Source: Minisyncoccota bacterium
GTDB taxonomy: Bacteria; Patescibacteriota; Minisyncoccia; Phycocordibacterales; XYD1-FULL-46-19
Assembly (NCBI GenBank): GCA_040879645.1
Contig: JBBDJY010000016.1
Coordinates: 11,064-75,063 of the forward strand
DNA length: 64,000 nt
Direction of reading: 5' to 3'
How positions within the stretch are numbered: the first letter of the stretch is position 1; every line of letters starts with the position of its first letter. The notes under the pieces are model-generated. The model was given only the letters and a program-made list of their open reading frames with translations, made no database searches and was not told the DNA's origin. The position numbers were made by a program, and so were the translations under genes. Positions 34,677-47,678 of this stretch are shown here, one piece after another.

Positions 34677-35423
34677 ATGAGCCGAAATTTTTCTTTCTCT
34701 ATTGATGAGTTCTATCACCTGTATAATCGTGGTAACGATAAGAGGGATATTTTTCTTGATTATCTAGATAGGGAGAGATTTTTAAAATTACTCTATCTTT
34801 GTAATGGTAAAAATGAATTTCATATTCAAAAAATTCTTGACGAGGAACTTTTTTATTTTAATCGAGGTGAGTCTATCGTTGATATTGGAGCTTATTGTTT
34901 GATGGATAATCATTATCATTTATTGGTTAAAGAAAAGATGGAAAATGGCATCAGTCTTTTTATGCAACGATTATCAACGGCATATTCTATGTATTTTAAT
35001 AAAAAACACGATAGAACAGGCGCTTTGTTTGCCGGTCGTTTTAAGGCCAAACATCTTGATGACGATGACTATTTAAAGTATATTTTTGCTTATATTCATT
35101 TAAATCCGATTAAAATAGTTGATGATTTTAGTTGGAAATCCGGAATAGTAAATGATCTGGAAAAGATTAAAAAACATTTGAGCGATTATCGTTATTCGAG
35201 TTACCAAGATTATCTGGAGATCAATCGAGCAGAAACAAGAATCCTGAATAAAGAATCCTTTCCGGAATATTTTGATGATGTTGAAGATTTTAAAAATTAT
35301 CTAGATGATTGGATCAATTACCGAAGAGAAGAATTAGTCGAGGTTGAACCTCGACCAACAAAGGGTCATTCAATCAACAGTCGAGGTTCAACCTCGACTA
35401 GAGTTCTTTCGCTGATTCGATAA
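34677..35423 (+). CDS. REP-associated tyrosine transposase (RAYT), second copy; its 3' end runs into a REP doublet
   Basis: HUH motif NHYHLLVKE; YRYSSYQDY tyrosine region; N-terminal YHLYNRG. Confidence 0.8.
35337..35398. repeat. REP doublet (GTCGAGGTTGAACCTCGAC ... GTCGAGGTTCAACCTCGAC) overlapping the RAYT 3' end and containing the dnaE stop codon
   Basis: Direct reading. Confidence 0.85.
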
Positions 35424-38577: not shown

Positions 38578-38797
38578 GGGGGTATTATAGCAAAAAACCA
38601 CTTTGCCTGCAGATCAAGTGTTATTAGGTTAAAACATTATTATAATCACTCTTTATTTGCAATCCCTTTTTCTAAAGATATTGCCTACCTAAGGTAGTCA
38701 ATGGAGTTAAAATTTGTTTCATTGAGATTACTATTGATTACTTGATAATTTTGTTGTAGGATTAAAGTAGAAAACACTCTGAAAGGAGGTGATAATT

Positions 38798-39817
38798 GTG
38801 TCTTTGAAAAAAGAAACTGTGTTGAAGATGTTGAATCTTTTTGGTAATCAGCCGGAGATTTTATCTCTTCTTCCCGAACCCGACCGAACTTATGAATTGG
38901 TGGCTTGGATAAAGTCTATCCAAGTAGACGGGGATTGTCAGACTTGGACGATCGAAGAATACAGGCAAGCGGCTCTTTTGTTATTCGAGCCTAAGCGATC
39001 GGAAATGTTGATGATGATCCTTGCCAAATCTGTTGAAGAGGAGAAACTGAGAACAGTCATCTTGCTGGCGGAACCTGAGCGGTCCAATCAACTGGATGTC
39101 ATTTTAGAAAAGCAAATTGACTGGAGTGACTTTGTAAACACGACTTCGGAGACTTTAACTTTAATGGTCAAACCTAGTCGTTGCGTGGGTTTGGTCAAGT
39201 TGTTTAGGAGATGTTTGGACGAAGGGCAATTTAACTTGGCCGAACAAGCGGCCAAGTTGATTCCTGAAGCCGAGCGTCTCAAAATCTCCGAGATGATCTT
39301 GGAGGCTTGGATGATCTTGGATAGGCCGAAAAGCGGTTTCGAGATTACCGCTTCGATGGTCTCTGTCCTTTTTGCTCACACTTGTCGGTCTGGGTTCGAG
39401 GCCGAGGCTTTGGAAGAAAAGATTTTAGCCAAGCAGATCTCCGAGGGACAATTTAATCATGCCCTTAAGACGGTTGAGCTCATCAACCAACTTGATTCGA
39501 CCGAAGGCCCTGGGCGTGTCTTGGCTGAAGAGGAGTGGATTGTCATTCTCAAAGCAAGATTAGAGAAAGGTGAAGATGTCGACAAGGTTATTGTGATGAT
39601 TTCTGAACCTACCTTACCCACGGCTTTGATGGAGGTTTTGGCCACGCAGATAGAGAATGGTAATCTGGCTAAAGCCCAGACGGTGGTCAGTCTACTCGGT
39701 CGAGCTTTGACCGAAAAAGAAATGGAACGGATCTTTGAGGTTCAGTTCAATAACGGCTTAGAGGGCGTCAGAAAAACAGCCCAAATTCTTCTCGATCTTC
39801 AAAAGCCTGTGGCTTGA
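38798..39817 (+). CDS. Hypothetical all-alpha protein (about 340 aa)
   Basis: RBS AGGAGG 8 nt upstream of GTG 38798; no recognisable motifs; moderately AT-rich. Confidence 0.5.
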   Translation: MSLKKETVLKMLNLFGNQPEILSLLPEPDRTYELVAWIKSIQVDGDCQTWTIEEYRQAALLLFEPKRSEMLMMILAKSVEEEKLRTVILLAEPERSNQLDVILEKQIDWSDFVNTTSETLTLMVKPSRCVGLVKLFRRCLDEGQFNLAEQAAKLIPEAERLKISEMILEAWMILDRPKSGFEITASMVSVLFAHTCRSGFEAEALEEKILAKQISEGQFNHALKTVELINQLDSTEGPGRVLAEEEWIVILKARLEKGEDVDKVIVMISEPTLPTALMEVLATQIENGNLAKAQTVVSLLGRALTEKEMERIFEVQFNNGLEGVRKTAQILLDLQKPVA

Positions 39818-39926: not shown

Positions 39927-40526
39927 ATGGTAGTTGTAAAACAAAGAGAGCAATTTTTGATTGGTATTGACGAAGCCGGCCGCGGACCGCTGGCTGGACC
40001 GGTAGTGGTTGGTGGTGTAAAAATCCGGTCGGCGGTCTTGGCCGGTTTGCCGCCGATTCGCGATTCTAAAAAATTGACGGCCAAAGAAAGAGAAAACTGG
40101 TTTATTTGGCTTAAAAAAGAGAATAAAAACGGTAATTTATTTTTTGCTTTTAGTTTGGCGGGCCACCGCTTGATTGACCGGCGGGGAATTGTTTATTGTC
40201 TTGATTTGGCGGTTAGTCGAATTTTGCAAAAAATACCCGTCAAGCAAGCGGATAAGATATTACTTGACGGTAATTTGCGCGCGCCGGCCGGTTATAAAAA
40301 TCAGCAAACAATTATTCGGGGCGATGAGACCGAAGGGGCGATTGCCTTGGCTTCCATTGTGGCCAAGGTCACCCGCGACCGTTTAATGACCCGATTAGAC
40401 AAAAAATATCCACCATACGGTTTTGCCACTCACAAGGGTTATGCCACCGAAAACCATTATTTGGCTTTGTTGCAATACGGCCGTTCGGCCATCCATCGTC
40501 GGAGTTTTACCCGCTTTCTGGATTGA
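39927..40526 (+). CDS. rnhB: Ribonuclease HII
   Basis: GIDEAGRGPLAGPVV motif. Confidence 0.9.
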   Translation: MVVVKQREQFLIGIDEAGRGPLAGPVVVGGVKIRSAVLAGLPPIRDSKKLTAKERENWFIWLKKENKNGNLFFAFSLAGHRLIDRRGIVYCLDLAVSRILQKIPVKQADKILLDGNLRAPAGYKNQQTIIRGDETEGAIALASIVAKVTRDRLMTRLDKKYPPYGFATHKGYATENHYLALLQYGRSAIHRRSFTRFLD

Positions 40527-40551: not shown

Positions 40552-40654
40552 AAGATTGGTTATTTTTAACGGTCGAGATGTCAATCCAATGCTTTCCTTG
40601 AAGTGTCCCTAAAAAGTATTGCCAATTATTCGTTTTTCGGCTATAGTACTCTTT

Positions 40655-40894
40655 ATGTCCGTACGCATGCGACACACTAAAGCTCATACCGGCAATCGCC
40701 GCAGTCATCACGGCCTCAAGGGCCCGCGGCTTTCGGCGTGTGCCAAGTGTAGCGAAATGCATTTGCGGCACCGTTTGTGTGGCAATTGCGGTAATTATCG
40801 GGGCAAAGAAGTAGTGGATGTGATGACCCGCTTGTCCAAAAAAGATAAAAAGAACAAGGAGAAAGATCTGCGGAAACAAAATTCCGGCGCTTAA
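40655..40894 (+). CDS. rpmF: 50S ribosomal protein L32 with Lys-rich C-terminal extension
   Basis: MSVRMRHTKAHTGNRRSHH and CxxC..CxxC zinc ribbon. Confidence 0.8.
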   Translation: MSVRMRHTKAHTGNRRSHHGLKGPRLSACAKCSEMHLRHRLCGNCGNYRGKEVVDVMTRLSKKDKKNKEKDLRKQNSGA

Positions 40895-40976: not shown

Positions 40977-41888
40977 ATGGCAAATAGGCACTTATCACGA
41001 AGCCTCGCGATGCAAATCCTCTTTGAATGGGATTTCCGGGATATGCCGGATGTTTTGCCGACCGACCATATTTCGGAAGTCAGCAAAGAATTCGCTCCCG
41101 GTTTGGATGATTTGTCTTTCGTCCAGAACTTAGTGGCCGGAGTTAAACAAAAACGGGATAAATTGGATTTGATTATCGGTAAGGCGGCTCCCGACTGGCC
41201 GATTGAACAGATTGCCATTGTTGACCGCAATATTTTGCGGCTCGGTCTCTACGAGCTTTTATTTGGCGATAAGCGTCAAGTGCCGGCTCGAGTGGCTATC
41301 AATGAGTCGATTGAACTGGCCAAAACTTTCGGCGGTGAAAATTCCGGCCGGTTTGTTAACGGTGTTTTGGGGGCGGTCTACAAGGAATTGGGCGAACCGG
41401 ATAAACGGGACATCCCGCGCAAAAAAAAGATTAAAGATATTCCCTATGAAGAAATGCCGATTGAAAAACTCGGCGGGGCGATTGTTTACCGTTTGGATAA
41501 GCCGGAAATCGAACTGGCGTTAGTCCATGATATTTTCGGCTATTGGACATTATCCAAAGGTCACATTGAAGCTGGCGAAAGTGTCGAGGACGGCATCAAA
41601 CGGGAAATTAAAGAAGAATTGTCGCTGGATATCGCCCTTAAGGATAAACTTGGCCAGAATGAATATATCGCCGCTGATCCGGAAAAAGGCAAAATCAGAA
41701 AGCAAGTTGAATATTTTCTGGCCGAAGCCGGACAGCCGAATAAATTGGCTTTGGGTGACAAGGCCGGTTTGACCGAAGCGGCCTGGTATCCGGTTTCGGC
41801 GGTGCCCGACTTGGATATGTATGACGATATTGTGCCGATTATTACCACAGCGCTTAAATTATTAGCTGAACGCCGGCGTCAGAACTGA
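40977..41888 (+). CDS. nusB: NusB (transcription antitermination factor) fused to a C-terminal Nudix hydrolase domain
   Basis: N-terminal NusB motifs (RSLAMQILFEWDF, AINESIELAKTFGG..FVNGVL); C-terminal Nudix box GHIEAGESVEDGIKREIKEELSL. Confidence 0.8.
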   Translation: MANRHLSRSLAMQILFEWDFRDMPDVLPTDHISEVSKEFAPGLDDLSFVQNLVAGVKQKRDKLDLIIGKAAPDWPIEQIAIVDRNILRLGLYELLFGDKRQVPARVAINESIELAKTFGGENSGRFVNGVLGAVYKELGEPDKRDIPRKKKIKDIPYEEMPIEKLGGAIVYRLDKPEIELALVHDIFGYWTLSKGHIEAGESVEDGIKREIKEELSLDIALKDKLGQNEYIAADPEKGKIRKQVEYFLAEAGQPNKLALGDKAGLTEAAWYPVSAVPDLDMYDDIVPIITTALKLLAERRRQN

Positions 41889-41890
41889 AT

Positions 41891-42592
41891 ATGATAAAAA
41901 ATATTGAAACTTTTATTACCGACATCATCGGCTTAACGCCCAAACAACCGGCTCTTTACGAGCAGGCTTTTACCCATCGCTCTTATTTGAACGAACACCG
42001 TCAGTCGGCGCTTGAGCACAATGAACGCTTGGAATTTTTAGGTGATGCCGTTCTTGAATTGGTGGTGACCGATTATTTATATCGCGAATATCCGGAAAAA
42101 AATGAAGGCGAGATGACGGCTTATCGGGCGGCCTTGGTTAATACCGGCACTTTATCCGAAACCGCCAAGACTCTCGGTCTGAACGACTATTTGCGCTTAT
42201 CCAAGGGCGAAGCCAAGGATACCGGCCGGGCCCGGAGTATTATCTTGGCCGATACCTTTGAAGCTTTAATTGGCGCGATTTATCTGGATCAGGGTTATCT
42301 CATTGCCGCTGATTTTATCGCTCAAGCGCTTTTCCCGAAAACGGCGGAAATTATCGCCAAGAATTTGTGGCAAGACGCCAAAAGTTATTTTCAGGAACAA
42401 GCTCAAGAGGTAACCGGCCAAACGCCGACCTATCGGATTACCGACGAGCAGGGTCCGGATCATAATAAGCGTTTTACCGTTGGCCTCTATATCGGCGAAG
42501 AATTGATCGCCACCGGTCAAGGTCATTCCAAGCAGGAAGCCGAACAACAAGCCGCCGCCGCCGGTTTGATTAAAAAGGCTTGGGATAAATAA
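41891..42592 (+). CDS. rnc: Ribonuclease III
   Basis: ERLEFLGDAVL signature plus C-terminal dsRBD. Confidence 0.9.
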   Translation: MIKNIETFITDIIGLTPKQPALYEQAFTHRSYLNEHRQSALEHNERLEFLGDAVLELVVTDYLYREYPEKNEGEMTAYRAALVNTGTLSETAKTLGLNDYLRLSKGEAKDTGRARSIILADTFEALIGAIYLDQGYLIAADFIAQALFPKTAEIIAKNLWQDAKSYFQEQAQEVTGQTPTYRITDEQGPDHNKRFTVGLYIGEELIATGQGHSKQEAEQQAAAAGLIKKAWDK

Positions 42593-42625: not shown

Positions 42626-44851
42626 TTGATTATGAAACTTCTTTATTTGGAATTGGCCGGCTTTAAATCATTTGCCAAAAAAACCAGATTTTCTTTTGAA
42701 TCGCAAGTGACGGCGGTCGTTGGGCCGAATGGTTCCGGTAAGTCCAATGTCGCCGAAGCTTTTCGCTGGGTTTTGGGCGAACAATCGCTTAAGTCACTTA
42801 GAGGTAAGCGAGGCGAAGACCTCATTTTTAACGGTGGAGCAACATCAGGTCGGATGAATCGGGCCGAAGTGTCCATTTGTTTTGATAATGCCGGTCGGGA
42901 ATTTGATTTGGATTACGATCAAGTCGTGATTACCCGCCGAGTCTATCGCGACGGCACCGGTGAATATGAATTAAATGGCAGTACGGTTCGCCTTAAGGAT
43001 ATTATTGAACTCTTGTCTCAGGTGTCGCTCGGCTCAACCGGCCATCATATCATCAGCCAAGGCGAAGCTGATCGGATTTTAAATGCTGATTTGCGGGGCC
43101 GGCGAGAAGAGATTGAAGAGGCTTTGGGTCTAAAAATCTACCACTGGAAAATTACCGAGAGCAACCGGAAATTGGAGCGGACAGTGGAAAATAAGAAACA
43201 AGTGGAATCACTGCGACGGGAAATCGCGCCACATTTGAAATTTTTGAAAAAACAAGTGGAACGAATTGCCAAAGCCGACGCCATGCGCCGGGAGCTTAAA
43301 CAACTCTATCTCCATTATTTTCATTTGGAAGAAAAGCGCTTAAAGCAAGTTCGGAGTGAATTGGAAGAGAGTCGTCTTGGACCGGCCGCCGAATTGACCG
43401 ATTTAACCGGTCGCTTGGAAAGTTTGTCCGCCGGGCGAGAGTCCAATGAACAGTTAGCCGAATTGTCGCGACAAGCGGTCGAATGGGAAAAAGAAAAACA
43501 AACACAGCAAACAATCGCTAATGATCTTCTTCACCAAATCGGCCGGTTGGAAGGAATTATTGAAGTCCGGGCCGGTTTGATTGAAACCAAAACAACTCCG
43601 GAAACGGCGGTTGATTTGGCGGAAGTCCGAGATTTAAATCGTGAATTAACCACTGAGCTGTCGACGATTGAGACGGAAAATAATCCGGATAATTTGAAAC
43701 AAATTATTCGTCGTTTGGCCGAGCGTTTAAGTGAATTGATCAGCCGCCACAGCCGGAACAATGAAGGCGATTCGCCGGCTGACAATGAATTGGCGGTGGC
43801 CCGTGAAAATCGTGAGCGCTTAGCCGACCAACTACAAACCGTCCAAGAAGCCGAACGGCAAGCGACTGACGCTTTGTTAAAAATTAAACAGGACATTAAC
43901 CGCGAAAAAGAAAAAACCATCGGGGCCGAACGAGAATTGTATGAATTGAAAACTCGCCACAATGAATTGACCGGTACTTTGAATTTAATCACCGCCAAAT
44001 TGGAACAACTCAAACATGAAGAAGAAGATTTTCAGCGTGAGTTGGCCGAAGCGGCTGTCTTGATTGACCGGGAAGTGCTTGATTACGCTCGTCTGGTGCC
44101 GGCCGAGGAGACTAAGGCCGATGTGACAACGCTTACTGAAGAGCGTCGGCAAATTGAGCGCTTAAAGATTCGGCTTGAGGATATGGGTGGTGAAGGCGGT
44201 GATGTTTTGAAAGAATATGAAGAAACCGCCAAGCGTGACGAGGTCTTGGCGTCTGAATTGATTGATTTGGAACAAGCGGCCGTCGGTCTGAAACAAGTGA
44301 CGGCGGAATTGGAAGAGCGGTTATCGGCAGAATTTACCAGCGGTCTTGCTCGGATCAATGTTGAATTTGAAAAATTCTTTTCTTTAATGTTTAACGGCGG
44401 ACAGGCTCGTTTGCAAATAGTGACGGCGTCGCGCCGACGCCGACGCAATCAGTTGCTTGATGGTTTAGCTGATGAAATACCCGAGGCCGAGGAAGAAGAA
44501 GGCATTGATATTTCGGTTAACTTGCCTCGGAAAAAAATCAAGGGTTTAACTATGCTTTCCGGCGGAGAGCGGGCTTTAACTTCTATCGCTCTTCTTTTTG
44601 CGATGTCACAAGTTAATCCGCCACCGTTTTTGATTTTAGATGAGACTGATGCGGCGTTAGACGAGGCTAATTCGCGTAAATATGGCGAGATGATTACCAA
44701 TTTGTCCGAACAATCGCAATTGATTTTAATTACTCACAATCGCGAAACGATGTCACGAGCCGGCATTTTATACGGGGTGACGATGGGGGCCGACAGTGCC
44801 TCGCGCTTGTTGTCGATTAAGTTTGATGAGGCGGAGAATTATGCCAAGTAG
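42626..44851 (+). CDS. smc: SMC-family chromosome segregation ATPase, unusually short (741 aa)
   Basis: Walker A GPNGSGKSN; signature LSGGERAL; Walker B ILDETDAALD; long coiled-coil middle region. Confidence 0.8.
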   Translation: MIMKLLYLELAGFKSFAKKTRFSFESQVTAVVGPNGSGKSNVAEAFRWVLGEQSLKSLRGKRGEDLIFNGGATSGRMNRAEVSICFDNAGREFDLDYDQVVITRRVYRDGTGEYELNGSTVRLKDIIELLSQVSLGSTGHHIISQGEADRILNADLRGRREEIEEALGLKIYHWKITESNRKLERTVENKKQVESLRREIAPHLKFLKKQVERIAKADAMRRELKQLYLHYFHLEEKRLKQVRSELEESRLGPAAELTDLTGRLESLSAGRESNEQLAELSRQAVEWEKEKQTQQTIANDLLHQIGRLEGIIEVRAGLIETKTTPETAVDLAEVRDLNRELTTELSTIETENNPDNLKQIIRRLAERLSELISRHSRNNEGDSPADNELAVARENRERLADQLQTVQEAERQATDALLKIKQDINREKEKTIGAERELYELKTRHNELTGTLNLITAKLEQLKHEEEDFQRELAEAAVLIDREVLDYARLVPAEETKADVTTLTEERRQIERLKIRLEDMGGEGGDVLKEYEETAKRDEVLASELIDLEQAAVGLKQVTAELEERLSAEFTSGLARINVEFEKFFSLMFNGGQARLQIVTASRRRRRNQLLDGLADEIPEAEEEEGIDISVNLPRKKIKGLTMLSGGERALTSIALLFAMSQVNPPPFLILDETDAALDEANSRKYGEMITNLSEQSQLILITHNRETMSRAGILYGVTMGADSASRLLSIKFDEAENYAK

Positions 44852-44940: not shown

Positions 44941-45102
44941 GACCCAGACCCAAGCCCAACCATCCGCTAATTAGTATTACTTGGCTTGAATAGTAAAGTA
45001 AAAAGAACCCAACCGTTCGTCAAACACTACACTTTGGCTTAAGGCGTGAAAGGAAAACCCAGACCCAAGCCCAACCATCCGCTAATTAGTATTACTTGGC
45101 TT
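44941..45102. repeat. 46-bp direct repeats (44941-44987 and 45057-45102); the second contains the 3' end and stop codon of rnr
   Basis: acccagacccaagcccaaccatccgctaattagtattacttggctt appears twice, 115 bp apart. Confidence 0.8.
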
Positions 45103-47038
45103 TTTGTTTCTTTTTTCCGGTTGTTTTGTTGATGATTTTGTAGTCCAATTGCCGGCGGACCGGATCGGCTTCCGTTAATTTGAAAGTAACCTTATCACCC
45201 AAGCGGAAAGTTTGACCGGTCCGTTTGCCGACAATTTGATAATTTTTTTCGTCCAGTTCAAAATAGTCATCGCCGAGATTGCTCATTCGGGCCATACCGT
45301 CGGCTTTGGTTTCTGTTTCTTCAATAAATAAACCCCACTTGGTGACGCCGGAGATTATGCCGGTAAAGGTTTGACCGATTTTGCCGGCCATAAATTCTAC
45401 TTGCTTCAATTTGACCGATTCGCGTTCGGCTTCGGCGGCTTTAATTTCGCGGTCGGTCGATTGGATGATATCGCGGGCAACTTTGGCCATCTCGGCTTGT
45501 TTTGGCGTTTGGCCTTTCAGATAAGTATCAAGCAGACGGTGGACCAGGAGGTCGGGATAACGGCGAATCGGCGAAGTAAAGTGAGTGTAATAATCAAAAC
45601 CCAGGCCCCAGTGGCCGATATTGGTGGTGGAATAGATAGCTTTGGCCATGGCGCGAATGGCGGCGCGATGAATAATCGGGCCTTGGCTGGTTTCTTCCAC
45701 TTGGGCCAGAAGGCGATTAAGTTCTTTTTGGGAAATGTGTTCGTCGGTGATTTTAAGGTCAAAACCAAATGGTCGGAGAAAAGTTTTTAATTCGGCCAAT
45801 TTTTCCATATCCGGCAAATCGTGGATGCGGTAGATAAAAGTGTGGGGTGTTTGTTTGGTTTTTTGACTGACAAAGCGGGCGACTTGGCGATTGGCTAAGA
45901 GCATAAAATCTTCAATCAGTTTATGGGCATCGGTTCGCTCTCTAAGAGTGACGCCAATCGGTCGGCCGGTCTCGTCCAAGTCAAATTTAACCTCGGCATC
46001 TTCGAAAGTGATAGCTCCGGCTTCAATCTTTTTTTCGCGCAGACGATAGGCGAGTTTGTTTAAGGTGTTTAAGGCTTCGCTGTATTCACTTTGGTCGCCG
46101 TCCAATATCGCTTGAACATCTTCATAGGCAAAACGCTGGCTGGAGCGGATAATTGATCGGCCGAACCACTCTTGTTTAATTTCACCATCGGCGGTCATTT
46201 CAAAAACAGCCGAAAAAGCCAAACGGTCTTCGTCCGGCCGGAGACTGCAAATATCATTGGATAAAATTTCCGGTAGCATCGGTACTGTCCGGTCAACCAG
46301 ATAGACCGAAGTGCCGCGTAAGGCCGCTTCTTTGTCCAATTCACTGCCTGGCCGGACATAGTAAGAAACATCAGCAATATGAACACCGACTTCAAAGCGG
46401 TCGTCGCTTAATTTTTTGAAAGACAGGGCGTCGTCAAAATCTTTAGCGTCGTCTGGGTCAATGGTCATTGTCGGCAGGCCGCGAAAGTCTCGCCGACTTT
46501 TTGCTTCATTGGTCAAGGATTCGGCAAAACGGTCTTTGGCGGCTTCCGCTTCCGCCAGAACCGCCGGCAAAAAATCAGTTTCAAATCCGCGGTCCAAAAG
46601 GATTGATTGCATCTCGGTTTCATTGCCGCCACGTTTGCCGAGGTGCTTGATAATTTGGCCATTGGGTTTGCCGTCAGCCGGCCAGTCCTTAATTTCGACC
46701 ATCACTTTGTCGCCGCTCGTCAGGTCGGTGGCCTCGGCTGAAGGGATGGTGATGGTGGTGTACATTTTGCGGTCATCGGGATTAACAATGGTTGTTTGAC
46801 CGGTTTTTTCGATAATACCGGCAAAACGAGTTTTTGCTCGTTTAATGATCTTGGTAATTTTTCCCCGTTCACCGTCGGGTAAAGCCTTAACCAAGACCGT
46901 ATCACCGTGCAGGGCGGTATTTAAATCTTCGGGAAAGATATTCAAGGCTTGGCCGTTTTCGCAATTAACGGTGCCGTATTTGCCGTTAATCCGGACCAAA
47001 CCGGTGAGCTCGTTATCTTGATGTTGGGTTTTTTCCAT
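45092..47038 (-). CDS. rnr: Ribonuclease R (RNB-family exoribonuclease with S1 domain)
   Basis: RNB catalytic motifs (HIADVSYYV..DR) and C-terminal S1-like domain with a Lys-rich tail. Confidence 0.85.
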   Translation of the reverse strand: MEKTQHQDNELTGLVRINGKYGTVNCENGQALNIFPEDLNTALHGDTVLVKALPDGERGKITKIIKRAKTRFAGIIEKTGQTTIVNPDDRKMYTTITIPSAEATDLTSGDKVMVEIKDWPADGKPNGQIIKHLGKRGGNETEMQSILLDRGFETDFLPAVLAEAEAAKDRFAESLTNEAKSRRDFRGLPTMTIDPDDAKDFDDALSFKKLSDDRFEVGVHIADVSYYVRPGSELDKEAALRGTSVYLVDRTVPMLPEILSNDICSLRPDEDRLAFSAVFEMTADGEIKQEWFGRSIIRSSQRFAYEDVQAILDGDQSEYSEALNTLNKLAYRLREKKIEAGAITFEDAEVKFDLDETGRPIGVTLRERTDAHKLIEDFMLLANRQVARFVSQKTKQTPHTFIYRIHDLPDMEKLAELKTFLRPFGFDLKITDEHISQKELNRLLAQVEETSQGPIIHRAAIRAMAKAIYSTTNIGHWGLGFDYYTHFTSPIRRYPDLLVHRLLDTYLKGQTPKQAEMAKVARDIIQSTDREIKAAEAERESVKLKQVEFMAGKIGQTFTGIISGVTKWGLFIEETETKADGMARMSNLGDDYFELDEKNYQIVGKRTGQTFRLGDKVTFKLTEADPVRRQLDYKIINKTTGKKKQKAK

Positions 47039-47150
47039 GTTGGCCAGTATAGCATTACTTTGCTTTCTGCCAAATTAAACAGGCCTTTATCTAGCCTTGG
47101 TTCGGCTTCGGCGGTTGACGCTTGCCTTTTCGTTTGTTAGTATTCTTCGT

Positions 47151-47678
47151 ATGTTAAAAGTTAGATTACAGCGAGTCGGCCGGAAGAATGATCCTTCATT
47201 CCGGGTGGTGGTAACAGATTCTAAGAACGGCCCGAAAAGTGGTCGATTTATCGAAGTCCTTGGCGCTTACGATGCTCGTCGGAGCGAACCGCAATTGAAG
47301 TCTGACCGGATTAAATATTGGTTGTCGGTCGGTGCCCAGACTTCGGGTACGGTCCATAATCTTTTAATCAGTCAAGGGGTGATTAAGGGTGACAAAGTTA
47401 ATGTCTTGCCCAAGCGCCGACCGATTAAGAAAGCCGAGGATGAGGCCTCGGCAAACACGGCGGTTTCTACCGAAACTTCTGCCGATTCGGCGCCGGCCAA
47501 AGTGATAGCTGAAGATTCGGTCGCCAAAGAGCCGGCGGTGGCTCTCGCCGAAGAAGAGTCGGCGGAAAAAGAGGTTGTTCCTACTCCGGCCGAAAAGGCG
47601 GAAAAAACCGAAGATAAAAAAGAAGAGACTAAGCTGGAAGCTGATAAATTGATTGACAAAAAAGATGCCGGCCAATAG
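47151..47678 (+). CDS. rpsP: 30S ribosomal protein S16 with an approximately 90-aa Ala/Glu/Lys-rich C-terminal extension
   Basis: MLKVRLQRVGRKNDPSFRVVV S16 N-terminus; ORF from 47097. Confidence 0.85.
   Translation: MLKVRLQRVGRKNDPSFRVVVTDSKNGPKSGRFIEVLGAYDARRSEPQLKSDRIKYWLSVGAQTSGTVHNLLISQGVIKGDKVNVLPKRRPIKKAEDEASANTAVSTETSADSAPAKVIAEDSVAKEPAVALAEEESAEKEVVPTPAEKAEKTEDKKEETKLEADKLIDKKDAGQ

What the first reader, a model, noticed from the sequence alone, without database searches (positions are those of the whole stretch)
40977..41888. NusB fused to a Nudix hydrolase domain
A single 303-aa ORF contains a complete NusB (about residues 1-150, with canonical motifs) followed by a linker and a complete Nudix fold with an intact Nudix box (GHIEAGESVEDGIKREIKEELSL). 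A fusion of a transcription antitermination factor with a nucleotide pyrophosphatase or RNA-decapping-type hydrolase is unusual. It suggests coupling of rRNA antitermination to nucleotide or cap (NAD-RNA, Np4A) turnover.
Basis: partly seen in the sequence, partly recalled or inferred. Interest (0 to 1): 0.6.

Follow-up and report, generated by a model that had tools for sequence, protein, structure and literature searches.

The report
NusB fused to Ap4A-type Nudix domain
The rRNA antitermination factor NusB of this candidate-phyla-radiation bacterium really does carry a C-terminal Nudix domain of the Ap4A-hydrolase type; the fusion is found across a large uncultivated clade and has not been described in the papers I could search, but what the extra domain does is untested.

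Summary
ORF 40977-41888 (+) encodes 303 aa: a NusB that passes curated cut-offs (residues 1-140), a 22-residue linker, and a Nudix fold (163-303) with a near-canonical Nudix box at 195-217.

It is not an assembly artefact. At least 598 species-level genomes of Parcubacteria/Paceibacteria encode relatives. The best 80 all span both domains in one uninterrupted frame, always followed by RNase III and usually preceded by rpmF.

Other Patescibacteria (Kerfeld-, Buchananbacteria) have the same nusB-rnc neighbourhood with a plain 140-170 aa NusB. The Nudix domain was therefore added within one lineage.

By sequence profile and predicted fold the domain is closest to diadenosine-polyphosphate (Ap4A/Ap6A) hydrolases. 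It is not close to MutT, NudC or RppH.

The catalytic glutamates are kept in the window's own clade but lost in most divergent fused lineages. The residues aligned to the adenine- and phosphate-binding positions of Ap4A hydrolases are kept almost everywhere, and the fold survives. Ligand binding, not hydrolysis, looks like the conserved property.

My best reading is that NusB delivers an adenine-polyphosphate-binding module, probably active here, to the rRNA transcription and processing machinery. That coupling is inferred, not shown. I rate it a new variant of a known kind, of moderate interest.

The parts
40977..41888 (+). Whole nusB::nudix ORF, 303 aa plus stop codon
40977..41396 (+). NusB domain, residues 1-140. 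The BoxA/NusE-contact positions F16, E77, D83, R84, N85, R88 and F126 are conserved.
   Evidence: Pfam and TIGR01951 matches. PDB alignments to Aquifex and T. maritima NusB. Residue roles from PMC3177189. Residue mapping. F126 is invariant across the family.
41397..41462 (+). Linker, residues 141-162 (PDKRDIPRKKKIKDIPYEEMPI): basic and predicted flexible. In the close clade it is at least as conserved as either domain.
   Evidence: pLDDT below 50 at residues 142-151. Mean majority-residue frequency 0.81, against 0.77 for NusB and 0.72 for Nudix. Alignment A1.
41463..41885 (+). Nudix domain of the Ap4A-hydrolase type, residues 163-303
   Evidence: Pfam. Foldseek best match 3i7u, TM 0.88. Family profile against PDB: 3i7u at E 6.6e-33.
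41559..41627 (+). Nudix box, residues 195-217: G195, E201, R209, E210, E213 and E214 are all present
   Evidence: conservation counts
40619..40894 (+). rpmF (ribosomal protein L32), the conserved upstream neighbour
   Evidence: Pfam. Found upstream in 76 of 80 related loci and in distant loci.
41891..42592 (+). rnc (RNase III). Its ATG lies 2 nt after the nusB::nudix stop codon. It is the conserved downstream neighbour.
   Evidence: Pfam. Found downstream on the same strand in 80 of 80 loci. Also downstream of unfused nusB in other Patescibacteria.
42626..44851 (+). smc (short form, 741 aa), the usual next gene in the cluster
39927..40526 (+). rnhB (RNase HII), a frequent upstream member of the neighbourhood

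Best explanation
This is the NusB of a Parcubacteria/Paceibacteria-type CPR bacterium. In that lineage NusB acquired a C-terminal Nudix domain of the diadenosine-polyphosphate (Ap4A/Ap6A) hydrolase type, inside an older rpmF-nusB-rnc-smc gene cluster.

Shown: the fusion is real and clade-wide. The NusB half keeps the residues that hold BoxA RNA and NusE (S10). The Nudix half has an Ap4A-hydrolase-like fold and keeps the residues aligned to that family's adenine-stacking and phosphate-binding positions. In this organism all catalytic glutamates are present.

Inferred: NusB anchors on BoxA/S10 in the rRNA transcription-antitermination complex. Through a conserved basic linker it holds the Nudix domain next to the emerging leader RNA. 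There the Nudix domain binds, and in this clade probably hydrolyses, an adenine-nucleotide polyphosphate. Candidates are free Ap4A/ApnA, an Np4A cap, or the 5'-triphosphate end of the transcript. This would tie the 5'-end or alarmone status to rRNA synthesis and to RNase III processing. In many sister lineages the domain appears to have become a binding-only module.
For: Architecture and domain identity.

Conservation of the fusion:
- The 120 best clusters are all about 300 aa with both domains.
- At least 598 species-level genomes hold relatives, and the best 80 all span residues 1 to about 300.
- 59 of the 150 best 50%-identity representatives of the Nudix domain carry an N-terminal NusB.

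Operon:
- rnc lies downstream in 80 of 80 loci and rpmF upstream in 76 of 80.
- The same order holds for orthologues only 36-40% identical.
- Unfused nusB in Kerfeld-/Buchananbacteria-type genomes sits in the same nusB-rnc neighbourhood with no nudix gene.

Ap4A-hydrolase type:
- Profile E-values are 6.6e-33 (Aquifex Ap4A hydrolase), 1.2e-23 (Ndx1), 1.2e-20 (NUDT2) and 1.6e-19 (C. elegans Ap4A hydrolase), against 1.9e-7 for MutT.
- Y282 and D284 align with human F128 and E130, which contact adenine. K194 aligns with the P1-phosphate Lys42 (PMC4734340).

Purifying selection:
- In the close clade E201, R209, E210 and E213 are at least 90% conserved, and G195 and E214 are 100%.
- W190, K194, Y230, Y246, W270 and Y282 are 83-100% conserved in all identity bands.
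- The motif-degenerate orthologue P0228 still folds as an Ap4A-hydrolase-like Nudix, pLDDT 92.4.

NusB BoxA/NusE residues are conserved.

Precedent for Ap4A hydrolases acting on RNA 5' ends: NUDT2 hydrolyses pppRNA and caps, and RppH removes Np4N caps (PMC9283932).
Against: There is no experimental or structural evidence that the two halves cooperate.
- AlphaFold2 gives no confident interdomain geometry for the window protein (pTM 0.50, disordered linker).
- BoxA and rRNA leaders could not be examined. The window holds no rRNA, and an E. coli-type BoxA pattern is not enriched.
- The catalytic glutamates are lost in most divergent fused lineages: only 4 of 31 non-query sequence clusters keep all four. 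Hydrolysis therefore cannot be the universally conserved role.
- I could not check whether these genomes hold a second NusB, another Ap4A hydrolase, RppH or SuhB elsewhere. None lies within the 64 kb.
- Substrate assignment from Nudix sequence similarity is known to be unreliable.
Confidence: 0.5

Rival explanations
1. Non-catalytic accessory subunit. The Nudix domain is mainly a structural or ligand-sensing module of the antitermination complex. It may bind RNA or Ap4A and stabilise or gate NusB/S10 integration. This would resemble the inositol-monophosphatase-fold protein SuhB in the E. coli rRNA complex, or the catalytically inert, Ap4A-binding Nudix protein CF Im25 in mRNA 3' processing. 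Any hydrolysis in the window's clade would be secondary.
For: E210 drops from 90% to 42% to 21%, and E213 from 95% to 81% to 45%, with increasing divergence. W190, K194, Y230, Y246, W270 and Y282 stay at 83-100%. Only 4 of 31 non-query clusters keep all four glutamates. The motif-dead P0228 retains a confident Ap4A-hydrolase-like fold and a helical linker, with pTM 0.69. Pfam no longer detects NUDIX in P0228, yet the domain and the operon persist. SuhB is required for stable NusB/E integration (PMC6614801). [quoted passage not shown]
Against: In the window's own large clade the complete catalytic set is under clear purifying selection: E214 100%, E213 95%, E210 90%. A purely structural role does not predict that. 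No interface with NusB is predicted for the window protein.
Confidence: 0.27
2. Fusion without mechanistic coupling. A housekeeping Ap4A/ApnA hydrolase gene landed between nusB and rnc in a streamlined genome and became fused. It clears dinucleoside polyphosphates in the cytoplasm, independently of NusB, and the fusion only ensures co-expression.
For: The domain belongs to a housekeeping enzyme class. The two domains are predicted to be independent (pTM 0.50). The same Nudix subfamily occurs alone in other phyla and in other architectures.
Against: The fusion has been kept, in the same position, down to about 35% identity. The linker is at least as conserved as the domains. Lineages that lost catalytic glutamates did not lose the domain, which is hard to explain if only the enzyme activity mattered. 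The only split form examined in detail (P0144) was a single in-frame TAA, and the other apparent stand-alone close relative checked (P0128) was a contig-end fragment.
Confidence: 0.2
3. Sequencing or assembly artefact, or a frameshift, joining two separate genes.
For: None was found.
Against: One uninterrupted frame. A 100%-identical protein on a Logan contig. The 120 best clusters and 80 species-level genomes all carry the same continuous architecture.
Confidence: 0.01

Closest known systems
Canonical bacterial NusB (E. coli, Aquifex, T. maritima; PF01029/TIGR01951)
   Same: The N-terminal 140 residues score above the equivalog cut-off and have the all-helical NusB fold. F126, D83, R84, N85 and R88 occupy the positions of Aquifex F122, E81, R82, N83 and R86 in the BoxA/NusE site.
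   Different: Canonical NusB is a single-domain protein of about 130-170 aa. This one carries a 160-residue C-terminal extension. Position 122 is Asn where E. coli has D118; Asn is the residue of the nusB101 gain-of-function allele.
Nudix diadenosine-polyphosphate hydrolases (Aquifex aq_158 / 3i7u, T. thermophilus Ndx1, human NUDT2, C. elegans Ap4A hydrolase, Chlamydia CT771, mycobacterial MutT1/Rv2985)
   Same: They give the best profile and fold matches. They share the W-T-x-x-K-G-H-x-E-x-G-E lead-in to the Nudix box, a Tyr shortly after the box, and a Tyr/Phe-x-Asp/Glu near the C-terminal helix that contacts adenine.
   Different: The known enzymes are free-standing, or fused to a histidine-phosphatase domain in MutT1. 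None is fused to a transcription factor. Activity was not tested here, and many orthologues of the fused domain lack catalytic glutamates.
RsmB/Sun 16S rRNA m5C967 methyltransferase
   Same: A NusB-like N-terminal RNA-binding domain is fused to an enzyme that acts on rRNA. The window protein also hits RsmB models through its NusB part.
   Different: The partner domain is a SAM methyltransferase, not a Nudix fold. The RsmB N-domain is a NusB paralogue, whereas this protein scores as NusB itself.
SuhB in the E. coli rRNA antitermination complex
   Same: A protein with a small-molecule phosphatase fold serves as a subunit that stabilises NusB/E on the rrn leader (PMC6614801).
   Different: The fold is unrelated (inositol monophosphatase), and SuhB is a separate polypeptide. 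Whether these CPR genomes have SuhB was not checked.
CF Im25 / NUDT21 (and the NrtR-type Nudix regulators)
   Same: A Nudix fold that lost catalytic glutamates is used for ligand (Ap4A, ADP-ribose) or RNA binding in RNA processing or transcription control. This is a model for the motif-degenerate orthologues.
   Different: CF Im25 is eukaryotic, dimeric and not close in sequence. The window protein itself keeps the full catalytic motif.
RppH and Dcp2 (RNA 5'-end Nudix enzymes)
   Same: These Nudix domains act on RNA 5' polyphosphate or cap structures. Dcp2 also has a helical domain, a hinge and a Nudix domain in that order.
   Different: RppH models score 13-21 bits against cut-offs of 116-118. 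The Dcp2 matches superpose poorly over two domains (rmsd 12-16 A). The protein is not a member of either family.

Membership tests
NusB (TIGR01951 / PF01029) | Profile match above the curated cut-off over the full domain | tested here: met
   TIGR01951: 125.4 bits against 88.35, positions 2-130 of 131. PF01029: 116 bits against 23.1.
NusB (TIGR01951 / PF01029) | All-alpha seven-helix NusB fold | tested here: met
   The AF2 model has seven helices at residues 4-138. Foldseek matches T. maritima NusB 1tzv with TM 0.79.
NusB (TIGR01951 / PF01029) | Residues that recognise BoxA U8 and contact NusE (Aquifex F122, E81, K118 region; E. coli Y18, E75, E81) | tested here: met
   They map to F126 (invariant), D83, N122, F16 and E77. 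Residue roles come from PMC3177189. The E. coli sequence used and the NusE-contact roles of Y18, E75 and E81 were recalled from memory.
NusB (TIGR01951 / PF01029) | Binds BoxA RNA with S10 and supports antitermination | not testable with these tools
   Needs biochemistry or genetics. There is no rRNA leader in the window.
Nudix hydrolase superfamily (PF00293) | Profile match above the gathering score and an alpha/beta/alpha Nudix fold | tested here: met
   47.3 bits against 21.1. Fold matches have TM 0.72-0.88 to Nudix enzymes.
Nudix hydrolase superfamily (PF00293) | Nudix box GX5EX7REUXEEXGU with its catalytic glutamates | tested here: met
   Residues 195-217 fit, with Ser for the last Gly. 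Across orthologues the result is mixed: the box is intact in most of the close clade and degenerate in most distant fused lineages.
Nudix hydrolase superfamily (PF00293) | Mg/Mn-dependent pyrophosphohydrolase activity | not testable with these tools
   Needs an enzyme assay.
Asymmetrical Ap4A / ApnA hydrolase clade (NUDT2-like) | Closest relatives by profile and by fold are characterised ApnA hydrolases | tested here: met
   3i7u at E 6.6e-33, Ndx1 at 1.2e-23, NUDT2 at 1.2e-20, C. elegans enzyme at 1.6e-19. The top Foldseek hits are the same set.
Asymmetrical Ap4A / ApnA hydrolase clade (NUDT2-like) | Adenine-stacking Tyr after the Nudix box plus a Tyr/Phe near the C-terminal helix, and a P1-phosphate Lys | tested here: met
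   Y230 lies 13 residues after the box and aligns with the Aquifex Tyr. Y282 aligns with human F128, D284 with E130 and K194 with Lys42 (PMC4734340; PMC2425470). This rests on alignment only. The His that binds P1 in the human and Plasmodium enzymes is Tyr189 here.
Asymmetrical Ap4A / ApnA hydrolase clade (NUDT2-like) | Hydrolyses Ap4A to ATP + AMP | not testable with these tools
   Needs an enzyme assay.
RppH (RNA pyrophosphohydrolase, NCBIfam NF001936/NF001938) | Equivalog profile score above the cut-off | tested here: not met
   20.7 and 13.3 bits against cut-offs of 118 and 116. Bdellovibrio RppH 3ees reaches only E 3.7e-9 with the family profile.
MutT 8-oxo-dGTPase (TIGR00586 / NF008044) | Equivalog profile score above the cut-off | tested here: not met
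   18 bits against cut-offs of 97.9 and 148. 1mut reaches E 1.9e-7.
NudC NAD(+) diphosphatase / NAD-RNA decapping (NF001299) | Equivalog profile score above the cut-off | tested here: not met
   25.9 bits against a cut-off of 158, and the match covers only the generic Nudix core.
RsmB/Sun | NusB-like domain followed by a SAM-dependent methyltransferase domain | tested here: not met
   Only the NusB-like part matches: 55.8 bits against a cut-off of 319. There is no methyltransferase domain.

The most novel reading that the evidence does not exclude
The Nudix domain is a built-in reader/eraser of RNA 5'-polyphosphate or Np4A caps, or an Ap4A sensor, inside the rRNA antitermination complex. In a whole bacterial class, rRNA transcription and RNase III processing would then be gated co-transcriptionally by the chemical state of the transcript's 5' end or by the dinucleotide alarmone Ap4A. 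Some lineages would have converted the enzyme into a pure binding module.
Probability: 0.2. Interest if true: 0.8.

Novelty: new variant of a known kind. Interest (0 to 1): 0.5.

Why it matters
NusB is one of the most conserved bacterial transcription factors and is normally a bare RNA-binding domain. Here an entire, very large and uncultivated clade has attached an Ap4A-hydrolase-type module to it, in an operon with RNase III.

If the two halves cooperate, this would be a natural example of a physical link between dinucleoside polyphosphates (or RNA 5'-end chemistry) and rRNA synthesis. It could also give a cellular target for Ap4A, whose function is still debated.

The set of orthologues that lost catalytic residues but kept the fold and the aligned ligand-binding residues is a ready-made comparison of enzyme and pseudoenzyme.

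If the halves do not cooperate, this is one more CPR gene fusion. The practical lesson would then be that automatic annotation labels these proteins only 'NusB' and hides the second domain.

Tried and rejected
- Artefact or frameshift: rejected.
- A genome scan with the diverse alignment A2 failed because it had no conserved stretch. I repeated it with A1. Its search patterns lie in the NusB half, and only the best 80 of at least 598 hits were kept. The fused/unfused ratio among the rest is therefore unknown.
- Apparent stand-alone close relatives of the Nudix domain:
  - P0128 is a contig-end fragment of a fused gene.
  - P0144 is a fused gene with one in-frame TAA at the Tyr135 codon.
  - P0162 is truly separate but sits on a 1-kb contig with an uninformative neighbour.
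  - P0177 lies in an integrase/methylase/RepO-type mobile element.
  - More distant stand-alone relatives are generic Nudix proteins of Bacillota and Omnitrophota.
- I considered that invariant Met160 marks the ancestral start codon of a captured nudix gene. I dropped the idea after P0144 turned out to start at a miscalled TTG.
- The BoxA search in the window was not above chance: 5 hits against 4.8 expected. The window has no rRNA.
- The promoter/terminator scan around the operon was not above the shuffled controls.
- Taxon names for distant fused representatives could not be obtained.
- The AFDB fold library was unavailable.
- Literature searches for NusB with Nudix, candidate phyla radiation, Patescibacteria or domain architecture found nothing relevant. 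The 2017 Nudix-clan review contains no occurrence of 'NusB'.
- MutT, NudC, RppH and RsmB memberships were tested and not met.
Full report
**1. The observation**

The + strand ORF at 40977-41888 starts with ATG, ends with TGA and encodes 303 residues with no internal stop.

- Pfam places NusB (PF01029) at residues 7-136 (E 1.9e-33) and NUDIX (PF00293) at 187-281 (E 2.6e-12). Both are well above their gathering scores.
- The NCBIfam equivalog for NusB, TIGR01951, scores 125.4 bits against a cut-off of 88.35.
It fits the Nudix box GX5EX7REUXEEXGU except for Ser in place of the last Gly.
- Sequence search of the PDB hits T. maritima, Aquifex and E. coli NusB for residues 3-148, and Nudix enzymes for residues 163-295.
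- An AlphaFold2 model built on 46 orthologues has mean pLDDT 86.6. It shows seven helices, a stretch below pLDDT 50 at residues 142-151, and an alpha/beta/alpha sandwich. The pTM is only 0.50, so it describes two well-folded domains with no confident mutual orientation.

**2. Not an artefact, and not rare**

- A search of 5.8 billion clustered proteins returned 120 best clusters. All are about 290-316 aa (apart from a few shorter, N-terminally truncated calls), all carry both Pfam domains, and all are 62-75% identical to the query, except one 100%-identical partial copy on a single 6.5-kb contig of the Logan assemblies. Where named, they are called only 'NusB' of Patescibacteria, Vogelbacteria or Paceibacterota.
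The best 80 all match query residues 1 to about 300. Their titles name Vogel-, Kaiser-, Taylor-, Nomura-, Adler- and Campbellbacteria and Parcubacteria/Paceibacterota. Many ENA MAGs are titled 'uncultured Candidatus Saccharibacteria'; I did not check whether that label is reliable.
- In all 80 loci one uninterrupted stop-to-stop frame covers both domains.
- Searching the Nudix half alone against 1.84 billion 50%-identity representatives gave 133 hits below 1e-10. Of the best 150, 59 also carry an N-terminal NusB, and in these the Nudix identity falls as low as 30%.
- The one 'split' case I examined in detail (L092) is the same gene with a single in-frame TAA replacing the invariant Tyr135 codon. 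That is what a real break or error looks like.

**3. Genomic setting and origin**

In the window the order is rnhB, rpmF, nusB::nudix, rnc (its ATG is 2 nt after the stop) and smc. RNase R, rpsP, khpA and trmD lie nearby.

- In the 80 related loci, rnc follows on the same strand in 80 of 80, within about 165 nt in 75. rpmF precedes in 76 of 80.
- Orthologues only 36-40% identical (P0165, P0228, P0232) have the same rpmF-nusB::nudix-rnc order.
- The NusB half of the outlying fused protein P0232 retrieved almost only plain NusB proteins: 139-197 aa, 58-67% identical, with PF01029 as the sole Pfam domain, from other Patescibacteria such as Kerfeld- and Buchananbacteria. The one exception among the 120 (P0346, 207 aa) also carries PF00293.
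- All three such genes that I looked up sit directly before rnc, with no nudix gene between them. One also has rpmF directly upstream, and two have smc downstream.

The simplest history is an ancestral CPR rpmF-nusB-rnc-smc cluster into which a Nudix domain was added at the NusB C-terminus, within part of the radiation.

The nearest truly stand-alone relatives of the domain are at most about 40% identical. They lie in a mobile-element-like context (P0177), on a tiny contig (P0162), or in other phyla (Bacillota, Omnitrophota).

**4. What kind of Nudix domain**

Single-sequence matches to NCBIfam Nudix equivalogs (NudC, NudI, MutT1, RppH, MutT and others) are all far below their cut-offs and do not discriminate between families.

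- A profile of the domain family (alignment A3) does discriminate. It scores Aquifex Ap4A hydrolase 3i7u at E 6.6e-33 over the whole domain, T. thermophilus Ap6A hydrolase Ndx1 at 1.2e-23, human NUDT2 at 1.2e-20, the C. elegans Ap4A hydrolase at 1.6e-19, MutT1 at 2.2e-18 and CT771 at 2.6e-18. By contrast Dcp2 scores 2.5e-11, Bdellovibrio RppH 3.7e-9 and MutT 1.9e-7.
- Foldseek gives the same ranking: 3i7u has TM 0.88, followed by Rv2985/MutT1, Ndx1, CT771 and NUDT2.
- In the alignments, the conserved W190-T-x-x-K194-G-H lead-in, Y230, Y246, W270 and Y282-D-D284 match positions shared with these enzymes.
- For the human and Plasmodium enzymes, the literature assigns Lys42 to the P1 phosphate, a loop-5 Tyr and Phe128 to adenine stacking, and Glu130 to the adenine amino group (PMC4734340). 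A stacking Tyr/Phe shortly after the Nudix box is described as a hallmark of Ap4A hydrolases (PMC2425470).
- K194, Y282 and D284 align to Lys42, Phe128 and Glu130. Y230 aligns exactly to the Aquifex Tyr.

The domain is therefore of the Ap4A/ApnA-hydrolase type. Its substrate remains untested.

**5. An unexpected conservation pattern**

I compared 241 fused sequences, binned by identity to the query's Nudix domain (at least 55%, n=153; 40-55%, n=59; below 40%, n=29).

| Residue | >=55% (n=153) | 40-55% (n=59) | <40% (n=29) |
|---|---|---|---|
| E210 (catalytic) | 137 | 25 | 6 |
| E213 (catalytic) | 145 | 48 | 13 |
| E214 (catalytic) | 153 | 57 | 23 |
| E201 (catalytic) | 144 | 48 | 19 |
| W190 | 153 | 59 | 29 |
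| K194 | 153 | 58 | 29 |
| Y230 | 153 | 58 | 24 |
| Y246 | 153 | 59 | 27 |
| W270 | 153 | 59 | 25 |
| Y282 | 153 | 59 | 26 |

- When 242 sequences (the 241 plus the query) are clustered at about 50% average identity, the query's cluster (n=209) has all four glutamates in 149 members. Only 4 of the 31 other clusters keep all four. Their motifs include AAIIKDK, VDILKRK and IKKIKQK in place of xREUxEE.
- These sets overlap in origin and are not independent samples, but the trend is clear.
- An AlphaFold2 model of one motif-dead orthologue (P0228) is very confident: pLDDT 92.4, pTM 0.69, with a helical linker. Its Nudix half again matches Aquifex Ap4A hydrolase best, at TM 0.84.

Across the family as a whole, the fold and the residues aligned to nucleotide-binding positions are conserved, not the catalytic machinery. 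In the window's own clade the catalytic set is under purifying selection, so the enzyme is probably active here.

**6. The NusB half looks functional**

- In the Aquifex NusB-NusE-BoxA structure, F122 stacks on U8, E81 reads U8 and is held by NusE H15, and K118 touches the phosphate of G9 (PMC3177189).
- These residues align to F126 (invariant in all fused sequences of A2), D83 and N122.
- E. coli Y18, E75, E81, R86 and F122 map to F16, E77, D83, R88 and F126 (the E. coli sequence and the NusE-contact roles of Y18, E75 and E81 were recalled from memory).
- No second NusB or Nudix gene lies in the 64 kb. The rest of the genome could not be checked.

**7. The linker**

Residues 141-162 (consensus GEPGKDDVPAKKKRxKDIPYEQMPIEKL) are predicted to be flexible. 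Even so, their mean majority-residue frequency in the close clade is 0.81, against 0.77 for NusB and 0.72 for Nudix. That is typical of a short motif that binds a partner. The partner is unknown.

**8. How it most likely works**

Shown:
- a clade-wide NusB with an appended Ap4A-hydrolase-type Nudix domain;
- the conserved operon with RNase III;
- intact BoxA/NusE residues;
- an intact catalytic motif in this organism.

Inferred: NusB docks on BoxA/S10 in the rRNA transcription complex and holds the Nudix domain near the nascent leader. There the domain binds, and here probably cleaves, an adenine-nucleotide polyphosphate. This could be free Ap4A/ApnA, an Np4A cap or the 5'-triphosphate end.

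The RNA-end option has precedent. NUDT2 removes 5' phosphates from pppRNA and several caps, and RppH removes Np4N caps (PMC9283932). I put about 0.5 on this overall picture. The architectural part is near certain and the coupling is uncertain.

Rivals:
- (a) A mainly non-catalytic accessory subunit, like SuhB, which stabilises NusB/E in the E. coli complex (PMC6614801), or CF Im25, which binds but does not hydrolyse Ap4A (PMC2425470): 0.27. This shades into the best explanation for the motif-degenerate lineages.
- (b) A housekeeping Ap4A hydrolase fused only for co-expression: 0.2. Retention of the domain after catalytic loss and the conserved linker count against it.
- (c) An artefact: 0.01.

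**9. Comparison with what is known, and novelty**

Each half belongs to a well-known family, and the membership tests are listed separately in this report.

- The closest architectural analogue is RsmB, in which a NusB-like domain is fused to an rRNA methyltransferase.
- The closest functional analogues are SuhB in the rrn complex and CF Im25.
- The fusion is present in public databases but is annotated simply as NusB.
- Four full-text searches found no paper that mentions it, and the 2017 Nudix-clan survey contains no occurrence of 'NusB'. The searchable library is incomplete, so absence there is not proof.

I rate it a new variant of a known kind. Interest is about 0.5. It is a real and very widespread domain accretion on a core transcription factor, with an informative pattern of enzyme and pseudoenzyme forms, but it has no functional data.

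**10. What led nowhere**

- The BoxA pattern search in the window was not above chance: 5 hits against 4.8 expected.
- The promoter/terminator scan was not above the shuffled controls.
- There were no taxon names for the distant representatives.
- The AFDB library was unavailable.
- The first genome scan, with an alignment that was too diverse, failed.
- The idea that Met160 is a relic start codon was dropped.

Noticed in passing
L092:542-1462 (GCA_013565675.1, JACCDV010735530.1): An orthologous nusB::nudix gene is annotated as two genes because a single in-frame TAA replaces the invariant Tyr135 codon (GVLGAV*KELGEP). It is either a recent nonsense mutation or a sequencing error. The downstream 'nudix' gene call starts at a TTG inside the linker.
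   Followed up: yes
L086:4001-4453 (Logan SRR22388351 contig, protein P0177): A stand-alone 150-aa relative of this Nudix subfamily (37% identity, intact Nudix box) lies among genes for a phage-type integrase, a DNA methylase and a Rep_O-like protein. The setting looks like a mobile element or prophage.
   Followed up: partly
Proteins P0214, P0160, P0169, P0224: The same Nudix subfamily occurs in other architectures: Sigma70_r4 + DnaA_C helix-turn-helix + Nudix (P0214), Endonuclease V fragment + Nudix (P0160), tandem Nudix (P0169), and a 577-aa protein with about 315 unassigned N-terminal residues before NusB + Nudix (P0224). Some of these may be gene-calling artefacts.
   Followed up: partly
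window 42626-44851 (+): The SMC homologue is only 741 aa, and 722 aa in L081. The unfused-NusB Patescibacteria have 852-901 aa, and my recollection is that typical bacterial SMC is about 1,180 aa. The coiled-coil arms appear to be much shortened in this lineage.
   Followed up: no
window 34677-35423 (+): A 248-aa ORF with an IS200-like Y1 transposase domain (PF01797, E 2.7e-10) lies next to, and overlaps the end of, the dnaE gene on the opposite strand.
   Followed up: no
window 38789-39817 (+): A 342-aa ORF between dnaE and rnhB has no Pfam match. Related loci often have variable extra genes at this position.
   Followed up: no
window 47097-47678 (+): The rpsP ORF is 193 aa, but the S16 domain covers only residues 26-83. 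It therefore has a long C-terminal extension. khpA and trmD follow, and RNase R is encoded on the opposite strand at 45092-47038.
   Followed up: no
window 41397-41462 (+), residues 141-162: The interdomain linker is predicted to be disordered, yet in the close clade it is at least as conserved as either domain. It includes an invariant Met160 and a KKK(K/R)xKD(I/V)PY motif. In the distant orthologue P0228 the equivalent segment is predicted to be helical, with a higher pTM (0.69).
   Followed up: partly
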